A DNA stretch of 63,527 nt, counting the filler, from Octopus bimaculoides (Eukaryota), in the NCBI RefSeq assembly GCF_001194135.2. It is 5 parts of 5 records of this genome, joined end to end, with 100 filler letters (N's around TTAATTAATTAA, not from the genome) between each part and the next. Parts side by side here need not be neighbours in the genome. Positions count along the whole stretch, not along the records: positions 1 to 18,380 come from NC_068999.1; positions 18,481 to 39,612 come from NC_068983.1; 3 more parts are not named here. One strand, 5' to 3'. The notes below the pieces were generated by a model. The model saw nothing but the letters and a program-made list of their open reading frames with translations, did no database searches and was not told the DNA's origin. Below, in pieces: positions 5,835 through 58,649 of this stretch (the stretch's first letter is position 1; each line of letters begins with the position of its first letter). Made by a program: the position numbers and the translations under genes.

Positions 5835-6020
5835 TCCGCTAGCCACTAAAGCTATCTTTATTCTCTCTCTGTTTATTTTCTCGTGTTACTTAGCTGTTGA
5901 ACAGCGCAGGCTCGAAACGTAAAAGACTTTCTCACTTTCCCGAGCGTTAAACTAATACACTTGTTTGTTGTTTACACACCTGTCTTCATCTTTTGTTTCT
6001 TTTTGTAAATTCAAACTATA
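5835..6020 (+). mobile_element. Penelope-pLTR/retrozyme-like short repeat with degenerate hammerhead (paralog of 27975-28115)
   Basis: CTGTTGA-A-CAGC-GCAG-GCTC-GAAA-CG-TA-AAAGAC at 5894-5926. Downstream ACTTTC...CCGAGCGT...ACTAATA...TTTACAC...CCTGTC matches the minus-strand copy at 28 kb, and it ends in a TATG tract. Confidence 0.6.
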
Positions 6021-6227
6021 TGTATGTATGTATGTATGTATCATGGCATTCAGTTTAATGTTTTTGTCTTCTTTTTTATCAAGCTTCCTCACCAATTTGT
6101 TACGCGCCGAAAACATATTTCGGAGTAAAGAAGAGATAACAGAATAATAATATGTATATATTTTGCTTGTTTCATTCTTTAGACTGTGGCCATGCTGGAG
6201 CACACACACACACGCACACGCACACAC

Positions 6228-6268
<41 letters not shown>

Positions 6269-6474
6269 GTGTTACACACGTACGAACAAACGCGCAGACA
6301 ATGATGAACTTTATTTGTGCCATTTTATATCAGCTAAGAAAGTTATTTAATTACTGAGAGTGTACAACGACACATCACATAAACATCAAATTCAAAGCCC
6401 CGGCTACCTGCTAAGTCGTTGTGCACTCTCAATGATTAAATATCTCACTAAGATGAACTAAAATTATGTTGTCT

Positions 6475-6510
<36 letters not shown>

Positions 6511-6748
6511 ATTCACTATATAGCGCCCGGCATGTATGTATGTATAAGGCCCGATTCAACATGTACCTCCAGCAGAGAATTTTGAAACATTATTTTTTTT
6601 ATTTTATTACTATCTTTCCCAGATATTTTATTTCTAAGTCTCACAAATAATTCCTAAATCAGAAGTTTGGCCATTTCTGGTCAATTGATTTACCAAATTA
6701 TATATATATAAACATGTATGCTTTATGTACAAAAATATATGTGAATAT

Positions 6749-7156
6749 GTGGCTGTGTGGTAAGTAGCTTGCTTACCAACCACATGGTTCCGCGTTCATT
6801 CCCACTGCGTGGCACCTTGGGCAAGTGTCTTCTACTATAGCCCCGGGCCGACCAAAGCCTTGTGAGTGGATTTGGTACACGGAAACTGAAAGAAGCCCGT
6901 CGTATATATGTATATATATATATGTATGTGTGTGTGTGTTTGTGTGTGTGTGTGTTTGTGTGTGTGTGTTTGTCCCCCCAACATCGCTTGACAAACGATG
7001 CTGGTGTGTTTACGTCCCCGTAACTTAGCGGTTCGGCAAAAGACACCGATAGAATAAGTACTAGGCTTCCAAAGAATAAGTCCTGGGGTCGATTTGCTCG
7101 ACTAAAGGCCGTGCTGCAGCATGGCCACAGTCAAAATGCTAAAAGAAGTAAAAGAG
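6749..7156 (+). mobile_element. tRNA-derived SINE family A, full length
   Basis: A-box-like GGCTGTGTGGTAAG, B-box-like GGTTCCGCGTTCATTCCC, CORE-like CCTTGGGCAAGTGTCTT, internal (TA)/(TG) tract, 3' tail GCAGCATGGCCACAGTCAAAA...AGTAAAAGAG. There are 10 or more homologous copies in the window. Confidence 0.9.
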
Positions 7157-7187
7157 TAATATGTATGTATGTATGAATGTATGCATG

Positions 7188-7229
<42 letters not shown>

Positions 7230-8040
7230 GCTATAGTTGATATTTCGTCATGGCTTGTAGGACAGTACATTGTCACATGTACCAGTTCTCCCCCATTGGA
7301 TAAGTTTGAAGATTATTTATTTCCTCGATCTCTCATTTGAGTTATAAGATAGCCATTGCTGTCCTTGATTTCAAGAACCCTTTTAGAGACCTTTTTTTTC
7401 ATTTGGCAGGGTGTCCAATGTCCCCTTCCTCATCAAGCGAGCTTGCCGAGGTTGCCAATTTAGTGGCCTTCAATCCGAGCATGCAACAGTTTGTGCTGGG
7501 TTACAATTCACCAGTAGCACACTGACATATCTTCTCACACATACATACATACATACACACAACCCTTCTCTCTCTCCTTCCTTCTCACCCCCTCTCTCCC
7601 TTTCACCCTCACTCTCTCCCTCACAAAAAAGTTCAAAAAGTGTGCGCTGGGAAGATAAAGACGAGACAAGACGCGAACTAGATAAATAAAAAGGACAGAG
7701 GAAGAAACCGCAGCAATAATATATAAATTGCGGGAGAGAGATAAAAACAGACGTGTATTAGATAAGAAAGACAGGACTAGGAACAAAATAACGGGAAATG
7801 TCATAACTATTAGCGTTTATGGAACGAGACCATAAAACGGAAAATTGCTATAAAAAAGATGATATAAACAATTTTAGACGTTAAATGAACTTTGGATGCA
7901 ATTTAAGTTCAGTATTCTGGATCACGTGTTTGCTTAAAGATAGTTTTAGTGTTGCTTTTTTGTTTTTAGTGGGCCCTGAATTAATAATGGCATTGTTACT
8001 TAAGCTTCGTTGATCAGCCAGTAATTAAACGTTTTCAGTA

Positions 8041-8131
8041 TCTTCTTCTTCTTCTTCTTCTTCTTCTTCTTCTTCTTCTTCTTCTTCTTCTTCTTCTTCT
8101 TCTTCTTCTCCTCCTCCTCCTCCTCCTCCTC
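8041..8131. repeat. (TCT)n-(TCC)n microsatellite running into a gap
   Basis: Read directly. It produces the spurious poly-K/poly-E ORF. Confidence 0.95.
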
Positions 8132-8421
8132 NNNNNNNNNNNNNNNNNNNNNNNNNNNNNNNNNNNNNNNNNNNNNNNNNNNNNNNNNNNNNNNNNNNNN
8201 NNNNNNNNNNNNNNNNNNNNNNNNNNNNNNNNNNNNNNNNNNNNNNNNNNNNNNNNNNNNNNNNNNNNNNNNNNNNNNNNNNNNNNNNNNNNNNNNNNNN
8301 NNNNNNNNNNNNNNNNNNNNNNNNNNNNNNNNNNNNNNNNNNNNNNNNNNNNNNNNNNNNNNNNNNNNNNNNNNNNNNNNNNNNNNNNNNNNNNNNNNNN
8401 NNNNNNNNNNNNNNNNNNNNN

Positions 8422-8790
8422 CTGAGTTCAAATTCCGTCGAGGTCGACTTTGTCTTTCGTCCTTTCGAGGTCGATTAAATAAGTACCAGTTACGCACTGG
8501 GGTCGATGTATTATTATTATTATTATTATTATTATCATTACTATTATTATTAGTTTTATTATCATCATCAAGGCGGGGAGCTAGCAAAATCATTAGCACG
8601 CCGGGTTAAATGCTTAGCAGTATTTCATCCGCCGCTACGTTCTGGGTTCAAATTCCGTTGAGGTCGACTTTGCATTTCATCCCTTCGGGGTCGATAAATT
8701 AAGTACCAGTGAAGCACTGGGGTCGATGTAATCAAGTAGTCCCCTTCCCCCAAATTTCAGGCCTTGTGCTTGTCGTAGAAATAGTTGTTA
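8422..8790 (+). mobile_element. SINE family B: partial copy (8422-8509), (ATT)n, then full copy (8572-8790)
   Basis: GGCGGGGAGCTAGCAAAATCATTAGCACGCCGGG...GGTTCAAATTCC...GGTCGACTTTGCATTTCATCCCTTCGGGGTCGATAAATTAAGTACCAGT is repeated across the window. The central block resembles, from memory, Nin/Deu-type SINE domains (unverified). Confidence 0.85.
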
Positions 8791-9364
8791 TTACTATTGT
8801 TGTTGTTGCTGAACTCTAGATCAGCCCTGACCAATCAGATCTAGACTCAGAGACATTCCAAGCGCGACCATTCCACTATTTTCTTACATGTAAGGAACTG
8901 AACAGAAGGTCAGAGAGATTTGGGTTGCTGTTTCTGTCAAGCAAATCGAGCACATGGAAATTTCCTCATTGACTTTGGGTATTTCGTTATTCTAATGATG
9001 AGTGGTGAGTGATGGAAACTGCAGAATTTAATGCTACTGTCGAGTTATATTCAAATCCCACCAACGTTCACTTTATGATCCTTAACGGTGCAATAAAGCC
9101 ATTACAATGCTTAGGGCTAATCTAATCAACTATGCTTCCACACCCCGAACATATTTGATCTGCTGCCAATGTTACAGATCAATATTTATTATTGGCTTTA
9201 TCATTTTTTATTATTATTGTCCATCAGTAGATAATTTTGTCAACGCGCCAATAGTGCTCTTTAAATTTGTTTCTCTGAGTAACAAGCCAAGTGTATTTTC
9301 GTTTCCTTTCGCCGAATTTCATTTCTTCGGTTGTGCATTTTTATGTTAATATCATTAACATCTT

Positions 9365-9540
9365 GGCGGCGAGCTGACAGAAACGTTAGCACGCTGGGCG
9401 AAATGCTTAGCGATATTTCGACTGTCTTTTCGTTCTGAGTTCAAATTCCGCCGAGATCGACTTTACCTTTTATCCTTTCGGGGTCGATAAATTAAGTACC
9501 AGTTGCGTACTGTGGTCGATCTAATCGCCTGGCTCTCTCC
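9365..9540 (+). mobile_element. SINE family B copy
   Basis: GGCGGCGAGCTGACAGAAACGTTAGCACGCTGGGCGAAATGCTTAGC...GAGTTCAAATTCCGCCGAG...GGGGTCGATAAATTAAGTACCAG. Confidence 0.9.
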
Positions 9541-9544
9541 TCTC

Positions 9545-10600
9545 TTTTTCAACGCCAGACATGGTCTCTAAAAACTGCTACCTAATCTGTGGCCTCTCAA
9601 AAGCATCAACCTTAATTTTCTCACAAGACAAAGCTGGAAACTTTCTGTTTAAGTATTTGAAACAGCCACTGTCTTAGCGTTTCAACACGTTTTACACACT
9701 AAATGGGTTACCCATGCCTTGTCTTGATCGCACAGTTTCATGCCAAAGGTAAGCTTTCTTCACAAAATCTGTGGTTTTGTTTCGCTGTCTAGATAAAATA
9801 TAACATCCACGAATTTAGCAGAAAACAGCAGCGCTGCTTTCGCATTTTCCTCTCTCACAACTGGCCATGTTTCTGAAATACAAAACATATATTCATGTCA
9901 GTTGTCACCTGGAAAAATCATTTACAAAATTGTCAACGGTTACAAAGTAAGCAAATGCAGATTTGAGATGACAAAGTTCCAGAAAGAGCATACATACCAT
10001 GTTCTTTCTACAGTTTTTTGACCATGCTCAACAAAAAGTGACATTCACCTATGTGACCTTGCAAGTAAAGCATTAAGGGCACATTCGAAATATCACTTTT
10101 CGTAAGAAATAGTTAAAGATTCAACAAAACATGTCTCACCTGGTCTGCAATGAAATCAAGCACTAAATCAAGCACAGCGTGGGCATATCCGCAAGCGAAT
10201 TCCACAAATATAAGACATGTATAATGTCAAGAACCACGGAAATGTGTTGTTTATTAACATCTAATTGTATGAAGGACGTTTCTGTCGTCATCATGACATT
10301 TGAAACTGGTTAGATTGAAAACAGTGAAAGTTGTTTGAAGATACTTAAATCGTGACTTATGTTTTCACTTTTGTAGCGGCGTTTACCTAAATGTTTTCAA
10401 AGTTATGTCACGCCTCATACATTAATCGCATTTGATGAAGCCAAGTTTTTTAAATGCTGACAACACTGGAAAAGTTGAAAAATGGTCATTTGAGTTTCTG
10501 AAAAATCTTAACGTGATAAGGCAAAATGGATTCCATTTTTGAAATCAGCACTCCAAAATTACTGGGAAACATATTTTCAACACCAGACAACCAAACCTGT
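9545..10600 (-). mobile_element. Chapaev3-like (CMC) DNA transposon, decayed and internally deleted
   Basis: Minus translation from ATG at 9868 gives MASCERGKCESSAAVFC*IRGCYILSRQRNKTTDFVKKAY/FGMKLCDQDKAWVTHLVCK..VETLRQW, then FKYL/QKFPALSCEKIKVDAFERPQIR. These match recalled Chapaev3 motifs (FCYICG, KKAY..YFG..LGDQDK.WAPH..C, KFP.LS.EKIK.G.F.GPQIR). Terminal-type CGTGAT...CATTTTTGAAATCAGCACTCC lies near 10511-10555. Confidence 0.7.
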
Positions 10601-11633
10601 TTCCAATGTAATCAATTTAACATATTTCATTGACATTATGTTTACTGACTATAAAACTATAAAGCTACGGAATTGGCACACTTTGCGAACTCAAACGTCA
10701 GAATGTCTTACTGAAGTCGACTTGGCTTTCATGATTCCAGAGATCGATAAAGTATGTAGCAGACCATTCAAGAACTGGATTTGATCCAATCCACTATTAA
10801 AGTTCGCCCAAAAGTTTGTGGCCCTTTTCTCGTGTCAGAAGTTTTCCTACTAACAATCTTTATATAACATTATTTTTTTGTTAAAATATCTCCTTGAATA
10901 TGGCGTCCGTTTTACGAATCTCTCTCTCAATGAAAAGAAAACAAACAAAAAAATCACTCCAAAACAAAACAAAAACACTCAATTCTTTTGCTTTATTGTT
11001 TTTTTATTGACTTTCTAAACATTTCTTTCGTTTTCTCTGTTAAATTTTTTGTTTTGTTTTGCTCACGTCTGTGTAGTTTAGCTTTTGTAACATCTGAGAA
11101 ATTGCCCATGGGATGTGTGAAGTTGTCCGATCGTGTCGACGCAAATATTTTCACTGAAATGCGTTGCCTTCTGTATTATCAAAATCTCCATATATCTATC
11201 AGGCATGCAAATGAAATCAACATCACAGGAAACATCGAAACATCGATAGTCAGTCGCAGATTTTAAATCTCGTATACTTTTACGAAGACGAAATAAATCT
11301 GCTTGAGGCCGGTTAGTTTGTGCTTCCGATATTGCAGTTTGATTACACCATATTTATATTACGAAATTATTGTTGCTGTTTAGTTCTGTATCAGTCTGGT
11401 TGAAAAGTAAATCAAAGACTTTTCAACTCGTTTGATCAAAGATCACTCAGCCATTCTAATCAAAGACAGTGTAAATTTTCATTACATTATTTAATGCTTC
11501 CTTCCTTTCTACGAAGTTGTAGGTTAGGACTGCTCTTACTAGTAGGCCTAGTGACCAAGTCGCGCAGTTATTTTCCTTTTTGTTCCACAGCACACCGAAT
11601 AAGGTGATACAAGCGTCACGATATAACATCAGT

Positions 11634-11634
<1 letters not shown>

Positions 11635-11700
<66 letters not shown>

Positions 11701-11815
11701 TTCTTCTTCTTCTTCTTCTTCTTCTTCTTCTTCTTCTTCTTCTTCTTCTTCTTCTTCTTCTTCTTCTTCTTCTTCTTCTTCTTCTTCTTCTTCTTCTTCT
11801 TCTTCTTCTTCTTCC
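11635..11815. repeat. compound microsatellite (TATC)n-(CAT)n-(CTT)n
   Basis: Read directly. It is the source of the poly-H/poly-L ORF. Confidence 0.95.
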
Positions 11816-11904
11816 CAGTGATTCAATGGTTACTTTATTTCATCGATCCAAGAGAGATGATTGGCAAAGTTGATTTCAGTGAAACTTTGAGCTCAGACAA
11901 TAAA

Positions 11905-11923
11905 GTAGTAGTAGTAGTAGTAG

Positions 11924-11998
<75 letters not shown>

Positions 11999-12041
11999 GC
12001 ACTCACACATTGTGCCTATAGCAGAAACGATTATTATTATC

Positions 12042-12097
<56 letters not shown>

Positions 12098-12112
12098 AAG
12101 TAGTAGTACTAG
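11905..12112. repeat. (TAG)n/(CTA)n/(TAG)n tracts in alternating orientation
   Basis: GTAGTAG...TAGC-ACTACTACT... at 11905-11997, then (AGT)n at 12042-12112. Confidence 0.95.
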
Positions 12113-12199
12113 CAAAGCGCATCCACCGTTTATTAGTGATTCCCTAGTCCTGACAGATGACACCTTTGCACCTCCAGCCCACGGGTTTGGCATGCCGGT

Positions 12200-12300
12200 C
12201 GGCACACAGTACTAGAGCAACGTGGAATGAAGTGTTTTGCTCAAGAACACAACACACCATCCGGTCGGGGAATCGAACCCACGGCCTGGAGATAGTTAGG
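12200..12300 (-). mobile_element. SINE family C (tRNA head, CORE-like), partial
   Basis: Reverse complement reads GGTTCGATTCCCCGACCGGATGGTGTGTTGTGTTCTTGAGCAAAACACTTCATTCCACGTTGCTCTAGT. Confidence 0.8.
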
Positions 12301-12959
12301 CTACGCGATTTCACCATAAAGAACCAGTAGAAATACAGCACGACATTATATTCAGCTTCCTTAGCCACAATGGTTTGAAAGACAATGCAATGGACGTTAA
12401 GCAGGGGCGAAGAAGTGTGGGAGAGACCATGCTGTAACGTGCGGGATGGGATAAACAAGATATGTAGTTTATGGATAAATTAAAAAGGATGGGGATAAGA
12501 GGAGGGTGAAGAAATAAAGCGTGTGTTAAGGATTTAGTTGATAATAAAATTTCGTTTTTATTAATAGCCTGTCCTTTGAATGTCGCTTATATTCCTAATT
12601 TATTAGTTTCTCCGTTTCCAAACAAATCCGTGCTGCAATTCCCGCTGCACCACAAGTATATTAATCTATCTATGCAATCCTGATTTCAACTTCGGACGAC
12701 GGTGAATAATAAAAATGCATGATGGCTACTTATACGGTTTTATTGACCATTCGTAATCAAAGATATTCCACCAGTTCTATTGATCGTTTCCAGAATACCA
12801 GGAATATGTTCCTGATATTTAGTTGAACTGAGCTAATTTAGAATAAAATGTCCTTCCACACAGGAATATAAATAAACACTTACTGCAGATTTGAATTGGA
12901 CGATTTGTAATTAGATAGCTGAATAGTTTAGTTATTTAACCATTTTACTGCTCATAAGT

Positions 12960-13115
12960 ACACACACGCACAACCACACACACACACACGGCAACACACA
13001 CACACGGCAACACACACACACGGCAACACACACACACACGGCAATACACACACACGGCGCACACACACACGGCAACACACACACGGCAACACACACACAC
13101 GGTAACACACACACA
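12960..13115. repeat. minisatellite (CA)n-CGGCAA, about 8 units
   Basis: CACACACACGGCAA-type units in tandem with variable (CA)n length. Confidence 0.9.
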
Positions 13116-13557
13116 TTCACTCACATACTGGCAATCACAAATGGATTTGTTGAATGCTTGTGTTTATATAAACGAAGAAAATGACCAAATAAGGGAAAAT
13201 AAAATTTGTATATTTCATGAGATGAAGTCTCACTTTGAGTTTCACATTACCGATTATTTAAACGACTGAAGATGAGAAGCAGCTAATTAAAGAGGATTAT
13301 CTTCCACACAAAGGATTTGCTTGCGTGTTTTATACATGAAACTGAAGATATGAAAATATGTCAAGTATTTTTTCATGCTAGAAAGCGAATCTAACGTATG
13401 TGTTGCATAAAACCATCGTATAGATGAGTGTTTGACGTGTTTTTTAACCAGTCAATCAAATATCGATGACGGATCATATTTCGATCAAAGTGACACGGAA
13501 ACGTGCATGTGTGTACGCACGTACACACAAACACACGCACATAACAGGTACATACAT

Positions 13558-13613
<56 letters not shown>

Positions 13614-13699
13614 NNNNNNNNNNNNNNNNNNNNNNNNNNNNNNNNNNNNNNNNNNNNNNNNNNNNNNNNNNNNNNNNNNNNNNNNNNNNNNNNNNNNNN

Positions 13700-13736
<37 letters not shown>

Positions 13737-13740
13737 TGAA

Positions 13741-14035
13741 GGCGCATGGCTCAGTGGTTAGAGCATCGAGATTACCATCGTGAGGTTGTGAGTTCGAATC
13801 CCGGACCGGGCTGCGTGTTGTGTTCTTGAGCAAGGCACTCTATTTCACGTTGCTCCAGTTTACTCTGCTGTAGAAATGAGATGTGACGTCACTGGTGCCA
13901 AGCTGTATCGGCCTTTGCCGTTCCCTTGGATGACATCAGTGGTGTGGAGAGGGGGGCTGGTATGCGTGGGCGACTGTTGGCCTTCCATAAACAACCTTGC
14001 CCGGACTTGTGCCTCGGACCGAAGGGGGTCTCCTT
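13741..14035 (+). mobile_element. tRNA-derived CORE-like SINE family C, full length
   Basis: A box TGGCTCAGTGGTTAG, B box GAGTTCGAATCCC, then GTGTTCTTGAGCAAGGCACT...CTGCTGTAGAAATGAG (MIR/CORE-like). No tRNA 3' acceptor stem. Confidence 0.85.
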
Positions 14036-14159
14036 ATACTTATGTGTATATGTCTATGTTATATGTATATATATTTATATGTATATGGATATATGTATAT
14101 ATGTATGTATGTGTGTAAACAAAAGATGGAGGTGGAAATAGCAAAAAAGTAAATTTTTT

Positions 14160-14250
14160 TTAAAGCACAAGGCCCGAAATTTTTGGAGAGAGGGCAAGTC
14201 GATTAGATGGATCGCAGTACGGAATTGGTACTTAATTTATCGACCCTCAT
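14160..14250 (-). mobile_element. SINE family B 3' fragment
   Basis: Reverse complement reads GAGGGTCGATAAATTAAGTACCAATTCC...AAATTTCGGGCCTTGTGC. Confidence 0.75.
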
Positions 14251-14269
14251 GATGTTCTGTTGACAGCAA

Positions 14270-14565
14270 AGTATCAACTACAGCCACTGGGTTCGCAAAA
14301 GGCCAGGACGCTTGCACCAGTCCACAATTCCATCCTGGCATCCAACTAGTTGACAGAAACGGGCATTAAAACTGTCCCCGCTTTCTCTAGAGTGCAGACC
14401 GTGCTCTCTGACGTTTCGTTGTTCCTCAGGCTGAACGATCATGCGAAGAAGGCCGTGACAAGGGTCCTGAACACCTTTTCCCTAGAAGACTTCCTTGGGG
14501 AAATCACGATGTGGCTGGAACACTACAACAAGTGCATGGTAGTCAGAGGATCTTACTTCTAAGGC
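14270..14565 (+). pseudogene. mariner transposase C-terminal remnant
   Basis: LTETGIKTVP....SDVSLFLRL...KKAVTRVLNTFSLEDFLGEITMWLEHYNKCMVVRGSYF* resembles the mariner end W..RY.KCI...G.YFE. Confidence 0.8.
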
Positions 14566-14834
14566 AATTAGAATTTTGTTCTTTGGAATGAATAAATATT
14601 TCCCCTAGAAAAATTAAAAAAACTTCTGGAATACATCTTGTATATTTGTATATGTGAATATATGTGTGTGTGTATACATACATACATACATACATATATA
14701 TATATATATGTATGTATGGATATATNNNNNNNNNNNNNNNNNNNNNNNNNNNNNNNNNNNNNNNNNNNNNNNNNNNNNNNNNNNNNNNNNNNNNNNNNNN
14801 NNNNNNNNNNNNNNNNNNNNNNNNNTATATATAT

Positions 14835-14866
<32 letters not shown>

Positions 14867-15402
14867 CAGTATGTTTATATACGCACATATGAGCTTTCCA
14901 AATTGCTTACCAGAATATCAGAAATGCTTTAGTATATAATAACACTGGTCTATTGAGATATTCTTATGTTTTAGGTATGCACTATGTATATACACTAGAA
15001 AGAAAGAATGAAAGAACGAAAGAAAGGACGAGCGAAGGAAAGCGGAGAAAGCGATGAAGAAAAAAATCCAAATATCAACTAGGTTGACACAAATGACACT
15101 AAGACATAAAACTAATCAACTAAACTCTGCCGTATGTGCATTATACATTATGGTCTTCCTTCCTCTTTCTACTGGAAAGATTGTCGTACAATATCTTTGT
15201 ATTTTCCTCAAGAGGCCATTGTCGTCGGCTTTTATCCATTTTTGTTTCTTGCTCGTTGTTGTACAGTGGTATTTGAAAGAGAACGGCTGGTCGTAGGCAA
15301 GGAGATGGGAAAGAAAGGCCAAGTATGGAAGAAGAGTGTGTGTATGTGATAGAGATGGATATATATAGAAAAAGAAATTTAAGTAAAATGAGAGTGGGAA
15401 AA

Positions 15403-15433
<31 letters not shown>

Positions 15434-15838
15434 AGGAGAAAGATAAGTGTGTGATATAAGAGAGGGAAATTAGATTGAAACAATAGAGAGAGGGGAGATA
15501 GATGAAAGGACAAAGAGGGAGAGATGGAAAGACCAATAAGAGTTTGCATATGAAAAGACAAGTAGAGAGTGGTGAGAGACATAGAGTGTGAATGTGTGTG
15601 TGTGTGTGTGTGTGTGTTTGTGATGGATAGTGAGAGAGTGGGACGGCAAAAGAGGGACAGTGAGAGAAAGAGAAACAGATAGAAGGAGCAAGAAAGAGGT
15701 AGACAACGAAAAGGAAACAGTGAGAGAAAGATGAGTGAGAGAAAAGAAAAAGAAACAGGGATGGGGGAACACAGTGGCGGCAAGAGCGAGCGATAAAAGA
15801 GAAAGGAGGAAAGAGAGATCATGTTAAATAAAAGGACG

Positions 15839-15922
<84 letters not shown>

Positions 15923-16538
15923 GTTTGGAAGATAACTAACGACCAAAAGAAGAGATTTGCAGTGAGGGAACGTCAGCCGTATCGAATCAAGTGATTGAAA
16001 TAATACGAAGACAAAAAATTGAAGGAAAGAGGACTAAATAGATGGAAAATGGGGGCGGAACGAATAAAAAAAGAAAAGACGAAAGAAATGAATGAAAAAA
16101 GAAAAAGTAAATTGGGAGGTATATTCATCTTGTTGTTCTTTTTCTTTTCTTCACTTAACCGCAGATGTCTAGAGATTGCAGACGATAGAACTGAATGAAT
16201 GCTGTTCCTTCAAACTAGCAGCCTCGTTTTGGTGCGTATGCGTATATATATATACACACCACTTGATACAAATATGCAGAGTAATGCATACGCAGTTATA
16301 AAAATATACATTTTTATCCTGTCCATTGTAGATTTATAATAGTATGGGGCGATAAGGGACTTCAATTGGCTTAGTTATCTCACGGCTGAAAAACCAGAAC
16401 TGATGGGAGGCCTTATCGTACGAAAGTATTAACTGTCTAAAATGGACAATTTCGTATCCCTACTATTATCTCTCTACCTCTCCCGCTCTCATAAACACAT
16501 ACACACGCACAGACACATACACGCATGTACAATACAAC

Positions 16539-16608
<70 letters not shown>

Positions 16609-16859
16609 GATCCCTTTTGATCGTTCTTTTCTTTTTTTCCCCGATCCTTTTTGATCGGAATTTTACTTTTTTTTTCTCATTTATATATATATATATTTCT
16701 CGTGCTCCAGCATGACCACAGCCACTTGGCTGAAACCCATAAATAAATAAATAAATAAATAAATANNNNNNNNNNNNNNNNNNNNNNNNNNNNNNNNNNN
16801 NNNNNNNNNNNNNNNNNNNNNNNNNNNNNNNNNNATATATATATATATATATATATATA

Positions 16860-17566: not shown

Positions 17567-17570
<4 letters not shown>
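16860..17570. mobile_element. SINE A fragments (+ tail about 16860-17080; - head about 17440-17570)
   Basis: CCCCAGTATGGCTGCAGTCCCATGACTGAAAC, and CCAACCACATGCTTCCAGGTTCGGTCCCACTGCGTAGTACCTTGGACAAGTGTCTTC. The second block matches the + strand text of family A, so its orientation call is uncertain. Confidence 0.6.
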
Positions 17571-17625
<55 letters not shown>

Positions 17626-18380
17626 TATAAATGGATTTATATGTGTGTGTGTGTGTGTATGTGTGTGTGTATGTACGTATGTGTGCATGTACGTGTATGT
17701 GTATGTGTGTGTGTCCTCATAGAAATTTCGAGCCATGATATTCTCATCTTCGCATCTTTAAATATGATTTATTAACGTTTCATTAATAACAGATAACTAT
17801 CTGATACGATGAAAAGATTGCTTTACGAAGAAACAAAGCAGAAAGAACAAAAAAAATCACAAAAATTTTAATTAAAATCATATACGTATAACTTTGATAC
17901 AGAGAGCTATTAAAAATAGAAGCGTTTCAGACGAGGTATCACTACGCCTTTCTATTATAAACAACGGATCTTTTTAGAAGAAACAGCAACTATGTTCAAA
18001 GACCGAACGCAATAAAAATTGCGTTCATATCTGTGAAAGAATCTGTACAAGAAGAACATCTTTATAAAGCATTATGTTTGGAATGTGATGTATTTTATAT
18101 GGGCAAAACGTATAACTCTCGTTTCTAATTTATCGTTCCTTTGTTTTGTTTTGCTTGTTTCAGTCATTGGAGTGCGACCATGTTGGGTCACCCCTTGAAG
18201 GTTTTTATCAAGCAAATTTTACCTCAGTGCTTACGAATTTTTATAAGTCTGGTACTTACTCTATCGGTTTTTGCCGAACGTCTAAGCTCTGAGGTCGTAA
18301 GCAAACTACCACCGCTAGGAACAGACACATATACAAGCATACACACATGCACACATATATGTATATATATATATATATAT

Positions 18381-18480
18381 NNNNNNNNNNNNNNNNNNNN
18401 NNNNNNNNNNNNNNNNNNNNNNNNTTAATTAATTAANNNNNNNNNNNNNNNNNNNNNNNNNNNNNNNNNNNNNNNNNNNN
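18381..18480. other. artificial 100-bp scaffold linker N44-TTAATTAATTAA-N44
   Basis: Same layout at four places. TTAATTAATTAA places a stop codon in all six frames. Confidence 0.95.
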
Positions 18481-18778
18481 GTCAAGTAAATGAGACACAT
18501 CTTTGCCTCCACTGATTCACTTGCAAAGTGTTGAGTAAAATTATTTCGTTGCAGACCTCCTTTGGGTCTTTTTATTATCACTACGACACACATAGTCCCC
18601 AGTTGGTAACATTGATTTCAAGGCCCTCCTAGATGAGAGACTGGCATTCCACTTAATGTCTATGTTCCATGCTGGCATGGATTGGAGAGTTATTAATGTA
18701 GAAATATGGTATCGTAGCTACTAACAGTTGAGGGTTGCGTAGTCTAGACGGCGTTTTTAGATTTCATTATTCTCTTTA

Positions 18779-18808
18779 ACCCGGGCAAAGCCGGGTATTT
18801 CTGCTAGT
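18779..18808 (+). mobile_element. Helitron-type 3' terminus (hairpin + CTAG|T)
   Basis: ACCCGG-GCAAAG-CCGGGT, 7 nt, CTAG, T. Same pattern as 35576-35604. Confidence 0.7.
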
Positions 18809-19269
18809 AGCTTATATTCTTTTCTCAAATTTGTCAGTATTTTTCTGATCGTAGAATAATGATTTCTAATGGAGGATTCTCTGCTGGTTTCTATGATGTG
18901 TACTACTTCGTCGTTCGAGGAAATAAATTCCTACTTGTAAATTAAAGTGAAAGTAGTTAATGCAATTGAGTCAAGAGGGAGATGACACGAACTCAATGCT
19001 AAATTGTTCCTTAATTTATTGACCACGAAAAGAAGGATGAACGTTAAAATTGATCCCGATGTGATTTGAAAGAGAGCAGAGTGCTGGAACGAATATTGCT
19101 AGGCATTCTGTCCGACGCTCTAACGACTCCGCCAACTTGGACAAGATCAGGACAATCATATGGAAAAATGTTTTCCCATAACAGTTACATGGAAATATAA
19201 CAGCAGCACTGTGTCTACTTGAAAAAGGTACAATAATGAAAGGAGACATTCTGATAAGCACAGCATTTA

Positions 19270-20140
19270 AGCCATAAGCAATGAGTTATTTATTAATAGA
19301 CATACATCGTTGAAATTGCACATACTGACACAGTAACTCAATCTTAACTCGGTTTCCATTGCATTTGTGCCATCAATGAGTTTAGTTCTCAAATCTTTCA
19401 AAAGTCAAGAAGTGCTCTGTTGTAACCATTTCTTCGCAGCCATTTTCATCTCCTTGGTGCCATGAAATAGTTGTCACCGAATTCGCCTTTTGCCTGATTT
19501 GTTGCTAAAAATATGTGTGGTCACATATTGTCATGGTGAATGAGAATCGTTTTCAAATTTTCATTCAGTCTCTTTCTTCAAATGGCACCGATCACCAGTT
19601 TCTAAACATCTTAGGACTTGGAGAAGAGGTGTTATGTCATTCCCTGAACTGAACCTTCGTTTCTAGTCCACAAAGATCTACTCACATTTCATCATATGTA
19701 ACCTGATCGAAATAAAATTTGCTTGCATTAGCTTCAGATCAAAGCAGCCTTCTACATCTCTCTTTTAAATCGTTGTGTTAACTTTCGAAGTAGCCACTTT
19801 GCATCTACTTCCCGATACCTAAAGTTTTCCACCATCTTCAGTAACGCCTTGCGACCACTGTCTAGTAATTCAGTAAGCTCACAGATTGTGACTCGGCACT
19901 CCGCACAAATTATTTCGTCTACTAACAGGCTATTCATGTCAAAAGTCTCATTTGATGGCGTCCCATTGTATAATTTGTCTTCACGCTGGTTTTCCTTCCC
20001 TTAAATTCCTTCATCTATCAATGCACATCCCTCTTGTAAATGGTATCATCTCCGTAACAATCCGTAATCTTCTGTTTATGTCAAACATTGTACACGCCAT
20101 CTTTGTCAAGCATTAAAATATGACAGGATACTTCTGCATA
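19270..20140 (-). pseudogene. decayed mariner transposase
   Basis: LVDEIICAECRVTICELTELLDSG...ENFRYREVDAKWLLRKLT resembles the mariner HTH and WVP motifs. Many stops and frameshifts. Confidence 0.75.
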
Positions 20141-20290
20141 TAATCCATTGTTTCTACAATAAAAGAGAAGAGGAAGACGTGTTATTATAAAAGAGAAGTT
20201 ATTCTACAATGATGAACAATTTGACCGAACTATGTGAGGTTCTAAAAAAGTTATATCCACATTTGCATTACTTTCCGTTCAAGTCTCTTC

Positions 20291-20324
<34 letters not shown>

Positions 20325-20347
20325 TGTATACACACATACATGCATGC

Positions 20348-20399
<52 letters not shown>

Positions 20400-20420
20400 A
20401 TGTATATTTATGTATAGATA

Positions 20421-21684
20421 CAGGGGTCTTGTACAAAATAATGGAAACACCTTAAAATTTCACGCAAATTTATTTTAATAGGGATAGGACCGACTTTGGC
20501 AATAATTACAGCTTGAATTCAACGAGGTATGGACTCGTACAGTTTGAATTGTTTTCAAACGAATTTTTGTCCATTCTTCAGTTAAAACAGTCTCCAGTTC
20601 TTGTAGTGATGATGGTGGAAGATATCGACTACTTACTTGTTTTTCTAAAATGCACCATAAATGTTCAATAATATTGAGATCTGGGGACTGTGGTGGCCAG
20701 ATAAGATGTTCACCTTCATTAGTATGTTCCTTGTGCCATTCAGTAACAACTTTAGCTGTGGTGCATTATCACCCTGAAAGATCGTGTTTCCCTCCGGAAA
20801 CAGTTCTGCAACCATAAGATGAATTTGATCAGATAAAATGCTTAAATAGTCTTGACTATTAATACTGCCATGAAGGGAAACCACTGGGCTGGCGGATTTC
20901 CAAGATATAGCGCCCCCCCCCTCGCAGATCACCACAAATCCTCCTGCATGTTTAACAGTTGGAAGAAAGCAGTCTGGGTCAAATGCTTCTTTTGACTGTC
21001 TCCACACTTATATTCAGCCGGTGGTCGAAAATATGGTAAAGGATGACTTGTCCGAGAAAATAACATTCTTCCACTGCTTTAGGGACCAATTCTGTAGGTT
21101 TTTACACCACTCTAAACGCTTTGCAACGCTTGTTTTTGAAAGTAGTTGTTTTCTAATTGCAGCCCTCCTATGAAATCTGGCTTTGTGCAGCTCCTTGCGA
21201 ACAGTTTTGGGGAAACTGGGTTCTTGTGGTGGTCATTAAGCTCTGCAATAATTTTTGGAGCTGTACTTTTGTGATCCTTTCTAACAATTTGCGTAAGAGT
21301 CTGACGGTCCTTATCAGAAAGTTTCTATTTCCTTCCGGGATTTTGTTTCGAGGAGGAGGTTTTTCCCTCTTTCTCAAAGGTTGTCATTACTTTCGAGACG
21401 GTACTTCTTGATACACCAAACATTTCGGCTGTTTTCGTTACGCTAGCCCCTGTCATACGAGCACCAACAATTTGACTTCTTTGAAAGTCCGATAGAGCTG
21501 TCATTTTAATGAATTTTTATTACCTTTCTCTGATGATATCTGAAAAGAAACAGCAATTGTAGCAAAACATATTAAGCAACACTAATAATAAATCGAAAAA
21601 AAAATAATAAACAAGCTTTTGGCGGTTTTATAGATATTTCCAAATTATGATGCTAGGTGTTTCCATTATTTTGTCCAACCCCTG
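20421..21684 (-). mobile_element. near full-length Tc1-family DNA transposon (1264 bp)
   Basis: TIRs CAGGGGTCTTGTACAAAATAATGGAAACACCT (left) and CAGGGGTTGGACAAAATAATGGAAACACCT (right, reverse complement). Left flank TA, right flank TG. Confidence 0.95.
20475..21504 (-). pseudogene. Tc1 DDE transposase pseudogene
   Basis: MTALSDFQRSQIVGARMTGASVTKTAEMFGVSRSTVSKVM...GRK*; WKNVIFSDKSSF; FLPTVKHAGG; IFQGDNAP; WPPQSPDLNIIEHLW; IAKVGPIPY*. Several stops and a frameshift. Confidence 0.92.
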
Positions 21685-22086
21685 TGTGTATTTAGACATT
21701 AATATTCACATATCTTGTCCTATTGACTGAATATGTATTGTCTCTACTGACCCATGATAACGAAACTGGTAATATTGTATAGGTGAATGATTTATATGGA
21801 AAGCAGATATGTGACATGTTCTCCCTCAAGTAATTTACGTAACCATTCATCTACAAAATTGCATGTTTTGAAGCTTTACCATATATTTTAATTTTATGAA
21901 TCATGGATTTACGTTCTTATTTTCCAACACTACACATTTATTATCTGTTTAAATTCCAGATGGAATGCTATGCAGTTTAAGTGCTCCAGTGTTGATTTAT
22001 ATAAAAATGATTGTGTAACTTGGATACTGAGTCTGTAAAGATCGTTATCAATTGGTCATAGATACACTCGTTACATAATCTTAACA

Positions 22087-22122
<36 letters not shown>

Positions 22123-22429
22123 AAGTTATTATCCTATGCAATAATTTATTATTACTAATCTTAAAGGTAGTGGGCCAGCATTACCTTTAGAGTATCGGGA
22201 GGAGTCCTTTTCGGTATTTCTTTTTGACTTTTTACGTTCTGAGTTCAAATCCCGCAGAGGTCAGCTTTGCTTTTCTTCTACCGAGGATTGATAAATGAAG
22301 CACCTGGATGATAGATGTGTTGCCAGAAATAAACACCAGCTACTCGATTCTAAGTAAATTTGTGGAAGTTTAAGATTTTGGTCTATGTACTAGCAAATAT
22401 GTTGGCATTTGACGAGAACGTAGCTGGAA

Positions 22430-23250
22430 AGTCTATCCGAGATAACTTCCACTTCAGCGATACATCGTAGAGAAGATTGGTAGTAAATAGGGCTTCGGTT
22501 GGCTTCTAATCAACTTGGATCAATCAAAAGTTTTCGATAGTGTCGACCATCGTTATTTGACAAATGTTCTCAAAGCAAGTCATTGAATATACAGTTCGTC
22601 CCCTCGAGAGACAAGTTCATGACGTCGGTTACTGTCGTGGGGCGCTGCACGGATGGTCCTGTTAAATTATTTGGAGTTTGTTCTCGTTAAATTTTGAACT
22701 GGATAGGAACTGAGACGAAATAACTAGCAAGGTGGCCAGTCTCATTCAGAAATGGACTAAAAAGGAGCTATCTTTGAAAGATGAAGCGGAGGTGGAGAAT
22801 ACATGCAACGCTTCCACTGTATATTACCGCCTAACTGTTGGGTCTCTCTTTACTTTTCATTTGATCAGATTGGAGTGTTTGCTTCTTCGCTTCGTGAGAA
22901 AGGGACGTGCTGCAGTGGTCAGTATGTTCATAAGCTGTCAACATACTCTAGACGAAGGGTTCAGTTTTTCGTGGCTGCTGAAGCGCAGACCTGTGTTAAT
23001 GTAACAGTTGTACTGTATTCCGTTGACAGGTACGTTTTACGTCAGCGCGTATTGATGGCACTGCCGTCCTAAGTGAAACAGAGACTAAAACTGGGCCATC
23101 GCATCAGGAATTCTAACAGGAGCTCATCAGTCGGGTAGCGCGGTCGGTGGTACTTCCACTTTGGTGCTCTATAGAGGACTAATGGTAAACAATTGTGACA
23201 GCATTCTCAAGGAAGCTCTTGTGCCTCTGCCTGCGACTCAGTTACTGCTT
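22430..23250 (+). mobile_element. Tx1/L1-like LINE reverse transcriptase fragments
   Basis: LLINLDQSKVFDSVDHRYLTNVLKA (RT D..KAFD.V motif), then ASLIQKWTKKELSLKDEAEVENTCNASTVYYRLTV (W..R.LSL.G post-RT motif). Internally deleted. Confidence 0.75.
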
Positions 23251-26035
23251 TTCGCCACTCAAACTGCTCTATTATGGATGAAATTTGTTGCATATCTGAC
23301 TCTTTTCTGTCGTTATTTCCATTGAATGTTTTCGCATGAGTTTCATTCCCTGGTTCTACCAGTCCAGAATTTCACTTCAGAACACGGTTAATCAAATTTA
23401 GCGAATCACATATGAGCTTCCTCGCCGTCTCACCGCTACACTGCAAGACCTATGCATAAAGCCTTTTTTCAGAACAACCCATTTTAAGAATAATCAATCT
23501 CCCCATTGTTTTCTCGTAGAATATGGCTGTGATCTCTTTAAATTCAAGGTTATCAATTACTTTGCCAAATGTTGACACTTTCCTTTCTTTTAATAGCCTT
23601 TTAATGGCTCTTTTGTTACCATCTCATTTTATTTCATTTTAATACTTCCTTTATTGTCATCTCATTTACTGTATTTTATTACCCTTAGCTCTTTGTTACC
23701 ATTTCATTGCATCTCATTTAAAGCATTTATCCATTTTTTCACAGCCATTTTATATGCATGTATATTTAGAGTTTTGTATCATTAATGCCTCTCTTAACTT
23801 CTCACTATTCTATTGACTAGAATTGAAATATCGAACTTGTTTAGATGGCTTTGAGTAAATGCAAAAAAAAATAAATAAATAAAGCTATTGACCAAGATCA
23901 AGATCCACAAAACAACAATACTCTCATGTGTGGTACACAGCTATTGCGACACGCTTAAAAAATCTAATACTTCATTTCACAAAAACTAATCCAACTCAGT
24001 TACAAAGATTCACCTACCAATAAACTTCAGCCTCCGGTCACTATTTTTTTTACTTCGTCTGTTCTATTGTCAAAGCCACTTTCACCAAGGCACACCCGCA
24101 AAATCTATGAATACTGCTACTGCTGCTGCATTGATATTCAATTCACTACCATTCGTGCCATCATAGTTAACAAGGGCGTTGGAAAATTAGTAGAAACATC
24201 TCCCTTCTTATGTGTGTGTGTATGTGTGTGTGTGTGCGTGTATGAATTCACAACCACATTGTGTACTTGAGTTAATGATATCACTTCTTTGAATGTGTAG
24301 TTGATGGATATCTGAGAGATATAACGTGTAATGCTTTCTAGTGAATTTGTAGTGTTATGGTCTATAGAATCTAGTTCTGCATTTCGCTACTGATACCATA
24401 TTATCAATAAATCACTATAAACATTGTCGCCCACGTTGGTATTTCTTTATAGTCGGAGATGATTTGAGGTTTCAAAAATACTGAGTCATTCCCTAGAGAA
24501 TTTGGTAGGTGAAGAGAAAGTGTCATGTGTTCGATCAATGCAGCGCTTGGTTTCCATAAGTCCCTGCATCCACGCTTCAGATGGTTACAAATAATGTGAG
24601 GTGTGTCAGATTGCAGAGTGATGTCGATGCTGTAGACTATTGTTCTCTGACTTGAAGCTTTCTTTCAGTGCATGAGTAACAAGTTTATCAGTTAGACTGA
24701 GGTCAATAAGCAGAGATTTGAACTATGACAGCAATGTAAAGTATCTCATCCTAAGATCTAAGTACTCAACATATCTACTGCCTTATACCGACGCATTAGT
24801 TGTCGATTCCGAAAAAATGCATGGCAGTTTATACCCAAGGGGGATTTAAAGAGCACCCGAAGAAATAACTTACAGATCAGTGTAATTGTCACCAATTTGG
24901 TAGCAGAGGTTGCTGCAAGAGTATCCAGCTAAGTTGAACACGTGACTAAATTAGCGGTTCCGAGCCGGACATATTTTAAGGCTTAGACTTTATCTTTTGT
25001 CTCAGGTTAGTGAAGCCATTTATTTCTTGCTAGGAATTTGTAACTCTGGATGGGAGAAGGTGGATACTAGTTACTGTCAGCTGGTACTAATTGAGCCTGG
25101 AATACATATCAAGCAGATTTGTCAAGCCTTGAAATAGTGACTGAGGTTACTGTATACTACATGAAAACAAAATTAAGCAAACCTGAATTGCGTAAGAACA
25201 TTTAGACAATAGTAGAAGGTAGCGGCTGGTTACTGGTAAGTATAGCATCAATATTGTGTAGTTTATGAATTAATGTATTTAAAAATCCTTATACTATGTG
25301 TTTAAAAAGGAACCCGCAGTCTAGAAGTAGAATAGTATCAACAAGTTTCATCTTTCATTGGAGGCTCACAAGAAAACACTTACTCTGCTTTTTAAAGTGC
25401 TAGGCTGAAAAGAGCGAGGTGTAGAAAAGTAAAAAAAAAAATGTAGGCATAAGGATATCTAATGGTGATACTCACAGAAATGTATATAGAATTATGATAT
25501 GGGTTGTGTTACAGTTGGCATAATTAAGCACGAGTATTAGCTATGAGAACTTGAAATAATTATATGAAGAATAATTAATATTAGTCATTATCTCAAATAT
25601 TTTTGTGTCTTTCGGAAACTCTAGGAGATAGCTTCGGACATGTTTCGATCTCGTTAAACCTTTTCAAAGAATCTTATATTTCCCCATACTTGCCAAAATA
25701 GAGATAAGAAAATCGTTACTGTGAAACGATGCAAAATTGTTAGCGTAGATAAATAGAAATCTAGGTTGACGACAGGATATCATTAACTCAAGAAGTACAC
25801 AATGTGGTTGTGAATTCATACACGCACACACACACACATACACACACACATATATGTATATGTATGTATCTATCTACTTATACATATACATATATACACA
25901 TATCTATACACACACACACACACACACACANNNNNNNNNNNNNNNNNNNNNNNNNNNNNNNNNNNNNNNNNNNNNNNNNNNNNNNNNNNNNNNNNNNNNN
26001 NNNNNNNNNNNNNNNNNNNNNNNNNNNNNNNNNNN

Positions 26036-26085
<50 letters not shown>

Positions 26086-27513
26086 GTATATATACACACG
26101 CACACACACACACACAGAAGTCATATGCAATATATTTAGATATATCTAGCAAACATTTAATCTAGTGTAACTCGTCTACATTGTTGTTAAAACTGCTGCC
26201 CAAAATCTCTGATGATCTTTAGTGATATCCTCACATAATTGTTTTATCAGCAATTCATAGGCTAGGCTTCCTTTTCATAGTTATAAAATATTTCAAGTCT
26301 TATCAGTTATAGACACTCAACAAAGGTCAAGTGGGACCTATGTTAGGGCTCTGCTCATGTATTTCAGACAATGATGCTGCTGTGCTCACAAGCATTTTAA
26401 AGAGCATCATCAAAAATTCCAACCAATTTAATAAAGTACAACTCCTAGATGAACTACTTCTCTATTTAACCATTACAACAACGATCACTGTTCCGAACCA
26501 GGAAGCTCCACGGCGCCTTTGATCCGACTCTCACTACTCCTCTCGTCCTTACGTTTTCCATAATGTAATCTCGTCCTTCACGTTATTCTTCAGCTTCCAA
26601 ACTGCAGACACAAACTAATAGAAGTTCAAACTAAGTACCAACTGCATCGATCTTCTCGCTGTCAATGGTCACGGCTGTTGACCCTGGTCGTCGTACTGAT
26701 TAATGAAAATAAACAAGAAAGTAGAGATGACCAAGACACTTAATTAAGACAAATCTTTTAGTATGTTGCTAGCAATGGTGTAATTTCTTTGTAACCAATT
26801 CGTTTCATTTAAACCGTTTGTGTGATTTGAAAAAGTGTGTAAATTCTGACATCCCTCCCTAAATATATATATAGAACCTGGGTATTGATCGTAGATTTAT
26901 TTTAAACTAAAGTGAAGTCTCTAATGGCAATCTGAGCTCATATTCCTATTTTAAGTTCTAATTCAAGTTGTCTACGCCAATATTTCCATTCTGAAAGGCA
27001 TAAATGCCACACATCTACATATTTGTCAAATGCAAAGTTGTGGCATTTTAATTTTGAAGTTAGGGAGAAATTATCAAATTTCAAACAGAAAAATGAGAAG
27101 TTCCAAACAAGATTTGGGATTCATACACCATAACCTACTTGTAACACGATCAGAATTACTAGTGATAGTAATTTCCATGTTTTGGAGTCGGCGGAACCTT
27201 AAAGGAAACTGACGCATTTCAAATGAACTAAATTGAATTTCATAGATATATTATTCATGTACATATATCCGCTGATGTAAACCAGGGTTTGCTCATTAGA
27301 CGTCATGTTAAATACGGCTAGGACCCATACTTAATAACCAAATAGCTTTCTAAAGTAGTAATATTTTGTAAAAATGTTTTTCTGTTCAGCAATCATTTCT
27401 AAAATATTTTTAGTACTCGGTTCAGTAGTTTTTAAAATATCAAAGTAGACGCTTGAGTAATCAATAAAGCAAACACAAGTTTTTAAAAATTACACATAAT
27501 ATTTACGTGTGTA

Positions 27514-27594
<81 letters not shown>

Positions 27595-27974
27595 ATATTT
27601 CTGGTTGGATATGTTGAATGCAAAAAATGAAAGTTGCGCTGTGTTGTAACAATTATTTTTACCCAATTAATGAGATAAGTAGTAGTGTATGTTTAAAAAG
27701 AACGTCATTTTCAGAGAATAATTTGAATACCAGGAATTCCGTTCTATACGAGAAGGTGGGATAGGGGAGAGGAGAAAAAGAAAGAGCAAATGAAAGTGTG
27801 CCGAAGAGACAAAGGAAAAGAAAAACCTCAGGGAAACTTTGTCATCAGCTACATTAACAAACATGTATAATCCATTTGAATACATACATTCATACACACG
27901 GACGCACGCATACATACGCACACTCATATAAAAATATAGACAGACAGATATATATATATATATATATATATATG

Positions 27975-28115
27975 GGAGAATATACAAATAATAACAACAG
28001 ACGAGGACAGGTGGTGTAAATAACAAAAGGATATATTAGTATGACGCTCGGGAATACGGAAAGTCTTTGACGTTTCGAGCTACGCTCTTCAACAGAAAGA
28101 ATACGGAGACAAGTA
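27975..28115 (-). mobile_element. Penelope-pLTR/retrozyme-like short repeat ending in (TA)n
   Basis: Homologous to 5835-6020, carries a hammerhead fold, and its 3' end runs into (TA)n at about 27949-27972. Confidence 0.65.
28064..28100 (-). ncRNA. minimal type-I hammerhead ribozyme motif with variant core (A6U)
   Basis: TCTTT-CTGTTGA-A-GAGC-GTA-GCTC-GAAA-CG-TC-AAAGA: 5-bp stem I, 4-bp stem II, palindromic stem III (ACGU), GUC site. Confidence 0.65.
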
Positions 28116-28142
28116 TGTAATACGGATTTAAGTATGTAATAG

Positions 28143-58635: not shown

Positions 58636-58649
58636 AAAATATTCATAAG

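What the first reader, a model, noticed from the sequence alone, without database searches (positions are those of the whole stretch)
5889..28100. Two-copy repeat family with a hammerhead fold but a CUGUUGA core instead of CUGANGA
Seen: 28064-28100 (-) reads TCTTT-CTGTTGA-A-GAGC-GTA-GCTC-GAAA-CG-TC-AAAGA. Every helix pairs and the cleavage triplet is GUC, but core position 6 is U. The paralog at 5889-5926 (+), on a different scaffold piece, also has CTGTTGA, so the change looks like a family trait rather than decay. Known: A6 is normally strongly conserved in hammerheads, and Penelope-like elements carry minimal hammerheads with palindromic stem III that are thought to act as dimers. Inference: this is either an active non-canonical core variant or a successful family amplified with a dead ribozyme.
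Basis: partly seen in the sequence, partly recalled or inferred. Interest (0 to 1): 0.8.

Follow-up and report, generated by a model that had tools for sequence, protein, structure and literature searches.

The report
Octopus repeat with altered hammerhead core
A very abundant short repeat in octopus genomes carries the shape of a self-cutting "hammerhead" RNA, but one normally fixed core base is changed (A to U) across the family, so it likely cuts poorly or not at all and likely spread using Penelope-type jumping-gene enzymes without needing to cut.

Summary
The motif is real. Copy A (28064-28100, minus strand) meets every feature of the minimal hammerheads of Penelope-like elements (PLEs) except A6, which is U; 150 shuffles gave no such hit. 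Copy B shares U6, but its stem I and first stem II pair are broken. The window is from an octopus. Laying two contig sets from two species and two RNA runs on copy A shows a dispersed repeat of roughly 10^4-10^5 copies. A at position 6 stays under 5% in all four runs, so U6 is a family trait, kept across subfamilies. A same-architecture family from marine-animal metagenomes keeps A6 in 40 of 42 loci, U6 in none. Published mutagenesis says changes at position 6 lower activity, and hammerhead cleavage was dispensable for PLE insertion in vitro. Best reading (0.55): a non-autonomous PLE-end repeat with a crippled ribozyme. Rival (0.3): a slow or protein-assisted active variant, since the rest of the motif varies less than its flank (p=0.05). 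Cleavage was not tested and no partner PLE was found. The scan had not noted this family before; it has noted other PLE core variants in other genomes.

The parts
27974..28113 (-). Copy A of the high-copy repeat; cut short at its 5' end at 28113
   Evidence: summed contig depth 0.2-2.2 million over 27975-28118 against 4-60 just beyond; 1075 and 805 RNA reads carry a shared further 5' sequence behind 28113
28064..28100 (-). Minimal type I hammerhead fold: stem I 5 pairs, core CUGUUGA plus one extra A, stem II 4 pairs, GAAA-CG-UC
   Evidence: compared with the published consensus
28092..28092 (-). Core position 6, U instead of A; family-wide
   Evidence: no variant row at this place at the 5% level in X1, X4, X21, X23, all of which cover it
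28068..28069 (-). Predicted cleavage site after C17; position 17 is C or U in the family
   Evidence: row 28069: U in 30% (X1), 89% (X4), 23% and 21% (RNA); no pile-up of read ends here
27948..27973 (.). (TA)n run against the 3' end of copy A, 95 nt past the predicted cut site; likely the insertion target
   Evidence: loose ends at 27986 and 27993 also run into (AT)n
28100..28137 (.). 19-bp direct repeat across the 5' junction of copy A
   Evidence: 28100-28118 and 28119-28137, 84% alike
5870..6016 (+). Copy B, a more diverged copy that carries several of the family's minority letters; followed by (TATG)n
5889..5926 (+). Decayed hammerhead fold of copy B: U6 at 5897, C at 10.1, stem I unpaired, triplet GUA

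Best explanation
The two sites are copies of a short, dispersed, very high-copy octopus repeat in which hammerhead core position 6 is U across the family; the repeat is likely the 3' end of a Penelope-like element, its ribozyme is likely crippled by the change, and it likely spreads on the reverse transcriptase and endonuclease of an autonomous Penelope-like element without needing to cut itself. Shown: the fold, the high copy number, U6 family-wide in two species labels, subfamily structure, a 3' end on (TA)n, presence in RNA from many loci. Inferred: origin from a PLE terminal repeat; mobilisation in trans by target-primed reverse transcription starting about 95 nt past the cut site, at AT-rich DNA; low or no cleavage. 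On this reading U6 arose once in a source element, cost it nothing, and was copied through several waves of amplification.
For: Anatomy matches the PLE minimal hammerhead consensus 'U-rich, CUGANGAH, G..C, GAAAN, palindrome, NUH' in all but A6. U6 is fixed: under 5% of any other letter among 1443 (X1) and 2276 (X4) contigs and 2765 (X21) and 2152 (X23) reads laid. Geometry: 3' end 95 nt past the cut site, against about 85-92 nt worked out from PMC11167929 (cut 26 nt and reverse-transcription start 111-118 nt into the ORF). Octopus PLEs prefer (TA)n targets (PMC8557442 supplement). Position 6 changes lower activity: natural A6C under 0.1 per min (PMC3088659); single mutants of the CUGA turn had low activity (PMC9901934 passages). 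Catalytic hammerhead mutants did not impair PLE insertion in vitro (PMC11167929), and Naiad PLEs reach high copy number without a canonical hammerhead (PMC8557442). Recent mobility: 440 of 1443 X1 contigs are 99% or more alike to copy A; copy A's letters at 27989, 28021, 28033 are common in X1 (38, 63, 42% of depth) and nearly absent in X4 (3, 1, 2%); a 664-base single-copy X4 contig matches the flank 28125-28441 and its preceding 343 bases do not lie on the repeat, which suggests an empty site in the second species. RNA reads show no pile-up of ends and no dip in depth at the cut site.
Against: No cleavage assay. No PLE coding sequence was linked to the family: none among 105 window ORFs scanned, no protein hit for the one frame searched, no match in the one PLE consensus set searched. 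No inverted or tandem copy of the repeat showed in the joints table. The motif varies less than its 3' flank: 1 of 37 against 11 of 77 places with a DNA variant of 5% or more, Fisher p=0.051, and that one place (17, C or U) is a permitted change; a useless ribozyme should drift like the flank. The RNA test is weak: reads fall equally on both strands, come from random fragments, and a proven PLE hammerhead also left no such ends in public RNA-seq. A6U itself was not reported by number in any paper I could read.
Confidence: 0.55

Rival explanations
1. U6 is a tolerated core variant. The RNA still cuts slowly, as a dimer through the ACGU palindrome or with help from the PLE protein, and selection on source elements keeps the rest of the motif intact.
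For: All other core positions, G10.1-C11.1, both stems and the palindrome stay the majority letter in both contig sets; the only common DNA variant in the motif is at position 17 (1 of 37 against 11 of 77 in the flank, p=0.051). Natural A6C keeps low but detectable activity. A PLE hammerhead cut only when the PLE protein was added. Another very common family carries a different core change, U4C, in 23 of 42 loci, so core changes can ride in successful families.
Against: A6 is kept in 40 of 42 loci of the same-architecture family and in 50 of 52 core-like metagenome motifs (the one U6 case, L004, has no stem I). Mutants of the CUGA turn had low activity and no second-site rescue except the 3-8 swap. 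No compensating change is visible in the core. The conservation signal is borderline, rests on depth-weighted contig tables, and could reflect protein binding rather than catalysis. Copy B has lost stem I and G10.1.
Confidence: 0.3
2. The repeat is an ordinary SINE-like or otherwise mobilised element that picked up an old PLE end; the hammerhead shape is a passenger relic and PLE enzymes do not move it.
For: No PLE coding partner found. No inverted 5'-truncated partner seen, whereas 13 of 42 loci of the marine-animal family have one within 200 nt. SINEs are abundant in octopus and mostly unclassified (PMC13282606). The full 5' part of the family was not seen.
Against: The position of the motif 95 nt from a 3' end on (TA)n fits PLE ends. 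The visible 5' extension is pyrimidine-rich, as in the PLE hammerhead consensus, and the motif has decayed less than its flank.
Confidence: 0.15

Closest known systems
Minimal type I hammerheads of metazoan Penelope-like elements (Cervera and de la Pena 2014, PMC4209133)
   Same: Short stem I, extra base between 9 and 10.1, G10.1-C11.1, palindromic 15.2-16.2 with no loop, NUH triplet, U-rich 5' flank, mostly single dispersed copies.
   Different: U at position 6. All 44 rows in the supplement part I read have A6, though their search required it. No PLE ORF linked here; no activity data.
Natural core variants of hammerheads: A6C of phage Bcep176, U3-A8, U4C (Perreault et al. 2011, PMC3088659)
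   Same: A natural change at a conserved core position, including position 6.
   Different: A6C is one phage sequence with measured low activity; here it is A6U, fixed in a family of roughly tens of thousands of copies.
Poseidon element of Anolis, PAc (PMC11167929)
   Same: Hammerhead about 90 nt from the element's 3' end; AT-rich targets; no cut ends in RNA-seq.
   Different: PAc is autonomous, has a canonical core and shows protein-assisted cleavage.
Hydra-1_Obim and Naiad PLEs of octopus (PMC8557442 supplement)
   Same: Octopus PLEs with (TA)n targets; Hydra-1_Obim has a 3' hammerhead.
   Different: Its hammerhead has A6 and different stems; short motifs of this family were not found in that supplement.
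Non-LTR retrozymes (bioRxiv 10.64898/2026.07.22.740005)
   Same: Short, non-coding, hammerhead-bearing, PLE-derived.
   Different: Retrozymes are defined as tandem repeats; both window copies are single and dispersed.

Membership tests
PLE minimal hammerhead | Type I fold with short stem I | tested here: met
   Copy A 5 pairs; no common stem variant in the family; broken in copy B
PLE minimal hammerhead | Extra base between A9 and G10.1; G10.1-C11.1 pair | tested here: met
   Copy A and family majority; copy B has C at 10.1
PLE minimal hammerhead | Palindromic stem III region and NUH triplet | tested here: met
   ACGU palindrome; GUC or GUU in the family, GUA in copy B
PLE minimal hammerhead | Core CUGANGA with A6 | tested here: not met
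   U6; A under 5% in 4 of 4 runs
PLE minimal hammerhead | Self-cleavage as a dimer or with extended stem III | not testable with these tools
   No assay; RNA-seq shows no end pile-up, a weak test
Rfam hammerhead families | Covariance-model match | tested here: not met
   No hammerhead match at E up to 10 for either copy
Penelope-like element, autonomous | ORF with telomerase-like RT and GIY-YIG endonuclease next to the repeat | tested here: not met
   None among 105 of 183 filtered window ORFs scanned with Pfam; copies are non-coding
Non-autonomous PLE derivative | Hammerhead near the 3' end, microsatellite or AT-rich target | tested here: met
   95 nt to (TA)n in copy A; copy B ends on (TATG)n
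Non-autonomous PLE derivative | 3' end shared with an autonomous PLE; tandem or inverted 5'-truncated copies | tested here: inconclusive
   No genome held; no such joints listed; no protein partner
Non-LTR retrozyme | Head-to-tail tandem units | tested here: inconclusive
   Both window copies are single; genome-wide arrangement not seen

The most novel reading that the evidence does not exclude
Octopuses carry tens of thousands of copies of a working hammerhead with U at core position 6, a natural variant not described before, kept functional by dimer formation or by the PLE protein and held under selection through several amplification waves in at least two species.
Probability: 0.27. Interest if true: 0.75.

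Novelty: new variant of a known kind. Interest (0 to 1): 0.5.

Why it matters
What the hammerheads of Penelope-like elements are for is still open. This family is a natural experiment: it reached very high copy number, with signs of moving after two octopus species split, while carrying a core change expected to cut activity. If it is dead, cleavage is not needed for PLE-type amplification in vivo and the kept fold points to another role, such as protein binding. If it is active, the hammerhead core tolerates A6U, and surveys that require CUGANGA miss whole high-copy families. One cleavage assay separates the two.

Tried and rejected
No whole genome is held, so the genome-wide BLAST was replaced by laying reads. 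Family-specific patterns found nothing in metagenome, prokaryote genome or viral collections. No RNA holder was listed on record as RNA; raw RNA runs of the same species label were laid instead. Shifted register (UUGAAGA read as a U3 core with A6): rejected, stem II then fails at its second pair. Folding stability: copy A is no more stable than shuffles (z -0.35). With U6 the monomer folds as a rod that ties up the core (pair probability 0.97), but with A6 it misfolds into another rod, so this does not tell dead from active; my dimer energies were not informative. Idea that U6 removes an AUG start: rejected, that frame stops after 18 codons in copy A and the one other frame searched had no real protein hit. 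A canonical core at 44763 (minus) has no stem I and lies in a decayed LINE-like stretch: taken as chance. No third copy in the window. No PLE domain among 130 ORFs from the low-GC metagenome loci. Not in print as far as searched: 'hammerhead + CUGUUGA' 2 unrelated papers, 'A6U' 1 twister paper, family motifs 0, degenerate cores 0, octopus + Penelope + hammerhead 4 listed, none on this family in what I read. Lunse et al. 2017 on about the same class of motif is not held and may cover such variants; one supplement file of PMC4209133 could not be searched, and the repeat library of PMC13282606 lies in an outside archive.
Full report
Observation. Copy B at 5889-5926 has the same CTGTTGA and aligns with A at 78% over 151 bp. 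A descriptor allowing any base at position 6 hits only copy A in the window and gave 0 hits in 150 local dinucleotide shuffles. Copy B fails it: stem I does not pair, G10.1 is C and the triplet is GUA. Stem III is only the palindrome ACGU, so it can form only between two molecules. Rfam does not recognise either copy at E up to 10.

Source. The window is AT-rich, microsatellite-rich and gapped. Its longest clean ORF hits only three Octopus vulgaris proteins, at 62-71% identity, so it is an octopus, probably not that species.

The family. I laid four of the 24 listed runs on 27975-28446 at 80% likeness, listing differences from 5%: contigs of organism A (X1), contigs of organism B (X4, kind not on record but with flat single-copy depth on the flank) and two raw RNA runs of organism A (about 6% of each read). 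Summed contig depth is 0.2-2.2 million over 27975-28118 and 19-26 on the unique flank. The ratio gives about 53,000 and 76,000. The tool warns that this is no copy number, so I take only the order, 10^4-10^5, which agrees with 2 copies in 57,135 called bases of the window. The family ends 3' on (TA)n, 95 nt past the predicted cut site. Copy A is cut short at 28113, behind which 1075 and 805 RNA reads carry a shared, pyrimidine-rich continuation of at least 30 nt; the full 5' end was not seen.

Position 6. There is no variant row at 28092 in any of the four runs, though the bin is covered at depth 0.9 and 1.1 million in the contigs and about 1900 and 1300 reads in RNA. So A, C and G are each under 5% there. 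Variants that did show in the motif: position 17 C to U (30% X1, 89% X4, 21-23% RNA), U4 to A (1-2% DNA, 6% RNA), and changes at 28071 and 28077 seen almost only in RNA, which go with one abundant transcript holding a copy cut off at 28081. As a control, the same architecture was scanned in metagenomes (the scan stopped at 120 loci). Of 65 low-GC loci, 42 form one marine-animal family with A6 in 40, G6 in 2 and U6 in none, and with U4C in 23 (two of the 42 show the same sequence). Of 52 motifs with C3, a pyrimidine at 4 and G5, 50 have A6, 1 C6 and 1 U6, the last without stem I. Thirteen of the 42 have an inverted copy within 200 nt upstream, a PLE hallmark.

History. The family has subfamilies. 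Copy A's letters at 27989, 28021 and 28033 hold 38, 63 and 42% of X1 depth but 3, 1 and 2% of X4 depth, and 440 of 1443 X1 contigs are at least 99% alike to copy A. Copy B carries several minority letters. A 664-base single-copy X4 contig matches the flank 28125-28441, and its preceding 343 bases do not lie on the repeat; this suggests an empty site in the second species, but I could not follow it past the stretch laid. Inference: U6 predates the split of the two species and was carried through later amplification. Depth-weighted fractions from contigs are rough.

What it resembles. The published consensus for PLE minimal hammerheads (PMC4209133; main text parts 1-2 of 4 and part 2 of 3 of one supplement read) lists a U-rich flank, CUGANGAH, G10.1-C11.1, a palindromic stem III and NUH; copy A meets all but A6. 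Those motifs cut weakly and only as dimers or with an extended stem III. In the Anolis Poseidon element (PMC11167929; passages and half of the main text) reverse transcription starts about 85-92 nt past the cut site, catalytic hammerhead mutants do not impair insertion in vitro, cleavage needs the protein, and no cut ends were seen in public RNA-seq. Octopus Hydra and Naiad PLEs prefer (TA)n, and Hydra-1_Obim has an unrelated A6 hammerhead (PMC8557442; passages and supplement parts). No PLE ORF is tied to this family in my data, so PLE origin is inferred from anatomy.

Is it active? Against: a natural A6C variant cleaves at under 0.1 per min (PMC3088659, section 8); mutants of the CUGA turn had low activity with no rescue except the 3-8 swap (PMC9901934, passages); RNA depth does not dip and ends do not pile up at 28068-28069, a weak test. 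For: only 1 of 37 motif places has a DNA variant of 5% or more, against 11 of 77 in the 3' flank (p=0.051), and it is a permitted change. That pattern fits weak function, but also binding by the PLE protein. Folding does not decide: both U6 and A6 versions prefer off-pathway rods as monomers. I found no rate for A6U itself.

Verdict. Real, family-wide and unusual, but a variant of a known kind. Most likely (0.55) a non-autonomous PLE-end repeat whose ribozyme is crippled and not needed; 0.3 a slow or protein-assisted working variant; 0.15 a relic carried by another kind of element. My literature searches found no report of this family or of a natural U6 core; Lunse et al. 2017 was not available and may bear on this. 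Other papers seen: PMC13282606 parts 1-2 of 3 and its supplement list, PMC6962438, PMC6765202, PMC11014351 and PMC12192606 as passages, and the retrozyme preprint part 1 of 5. The scan's own notes hold no look-alike of this sequence and four other PLE hammerhead cases in other genomes, which I did not test. Interest 0.5.

Noticed in passing
window 28148-28279: A separate hairpin element beside copy A: 34-nt arms, 91% complementary, 44 nt apart. Summed contig depth 20-800, so a small family; almost no RNA.
   Followed up: partly
L001-L120, e.g. L012:1489-1531 and L005:1492-1534: A high-copy marine-animal repeat with the same hammerhead architecture has U4C in 23 of 42 loci, tied to one flank type, and inverted partner copies in 13 of 42. 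Another fixed core change in a successful PLE-like family.
   Followed up: partly
RNA reads laid at window 28081: One abundant transcript (270 and 367 reads) holds a copy cut off in loop II with further core changes; it skews the RNA variant table.
   Followed up: partly
window 28094: U4 to A minority variant: 1-2% of contig depth, 15 and 44 contigs, 6% of RNA reads.
   Followed up: no
window 58624-59388 (-): 255-aa open frame that looks like a Helitron fragment (label from recall); hits three hypothetical Octopus vulgaris proteins, one with an STPR repeat domain.
   Followed up: partly
window 20478-21232 (-) and 54143-54385 (+): Tc1/mariner transposase fragments: DDE_3, HTH_Tnp_Tc3_2 and HTH_48.
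   Followed up: no
window 43200-45300 (-): Decayed LINE-like stretch (label from reading the translation); holds a CUGAAGA core-like match at 44763 without stem I.
   Followed up: partly
window 14429 (-): CUGAGGA and GAAACGUC only 5 nt apart, with no stem II; probably chance.
   Followed up: no
window about 649-798 and 4100-4250: The same stretch occurs twice near N gaps (identical translations); possibly an assembly duplication.
   Followed up: no
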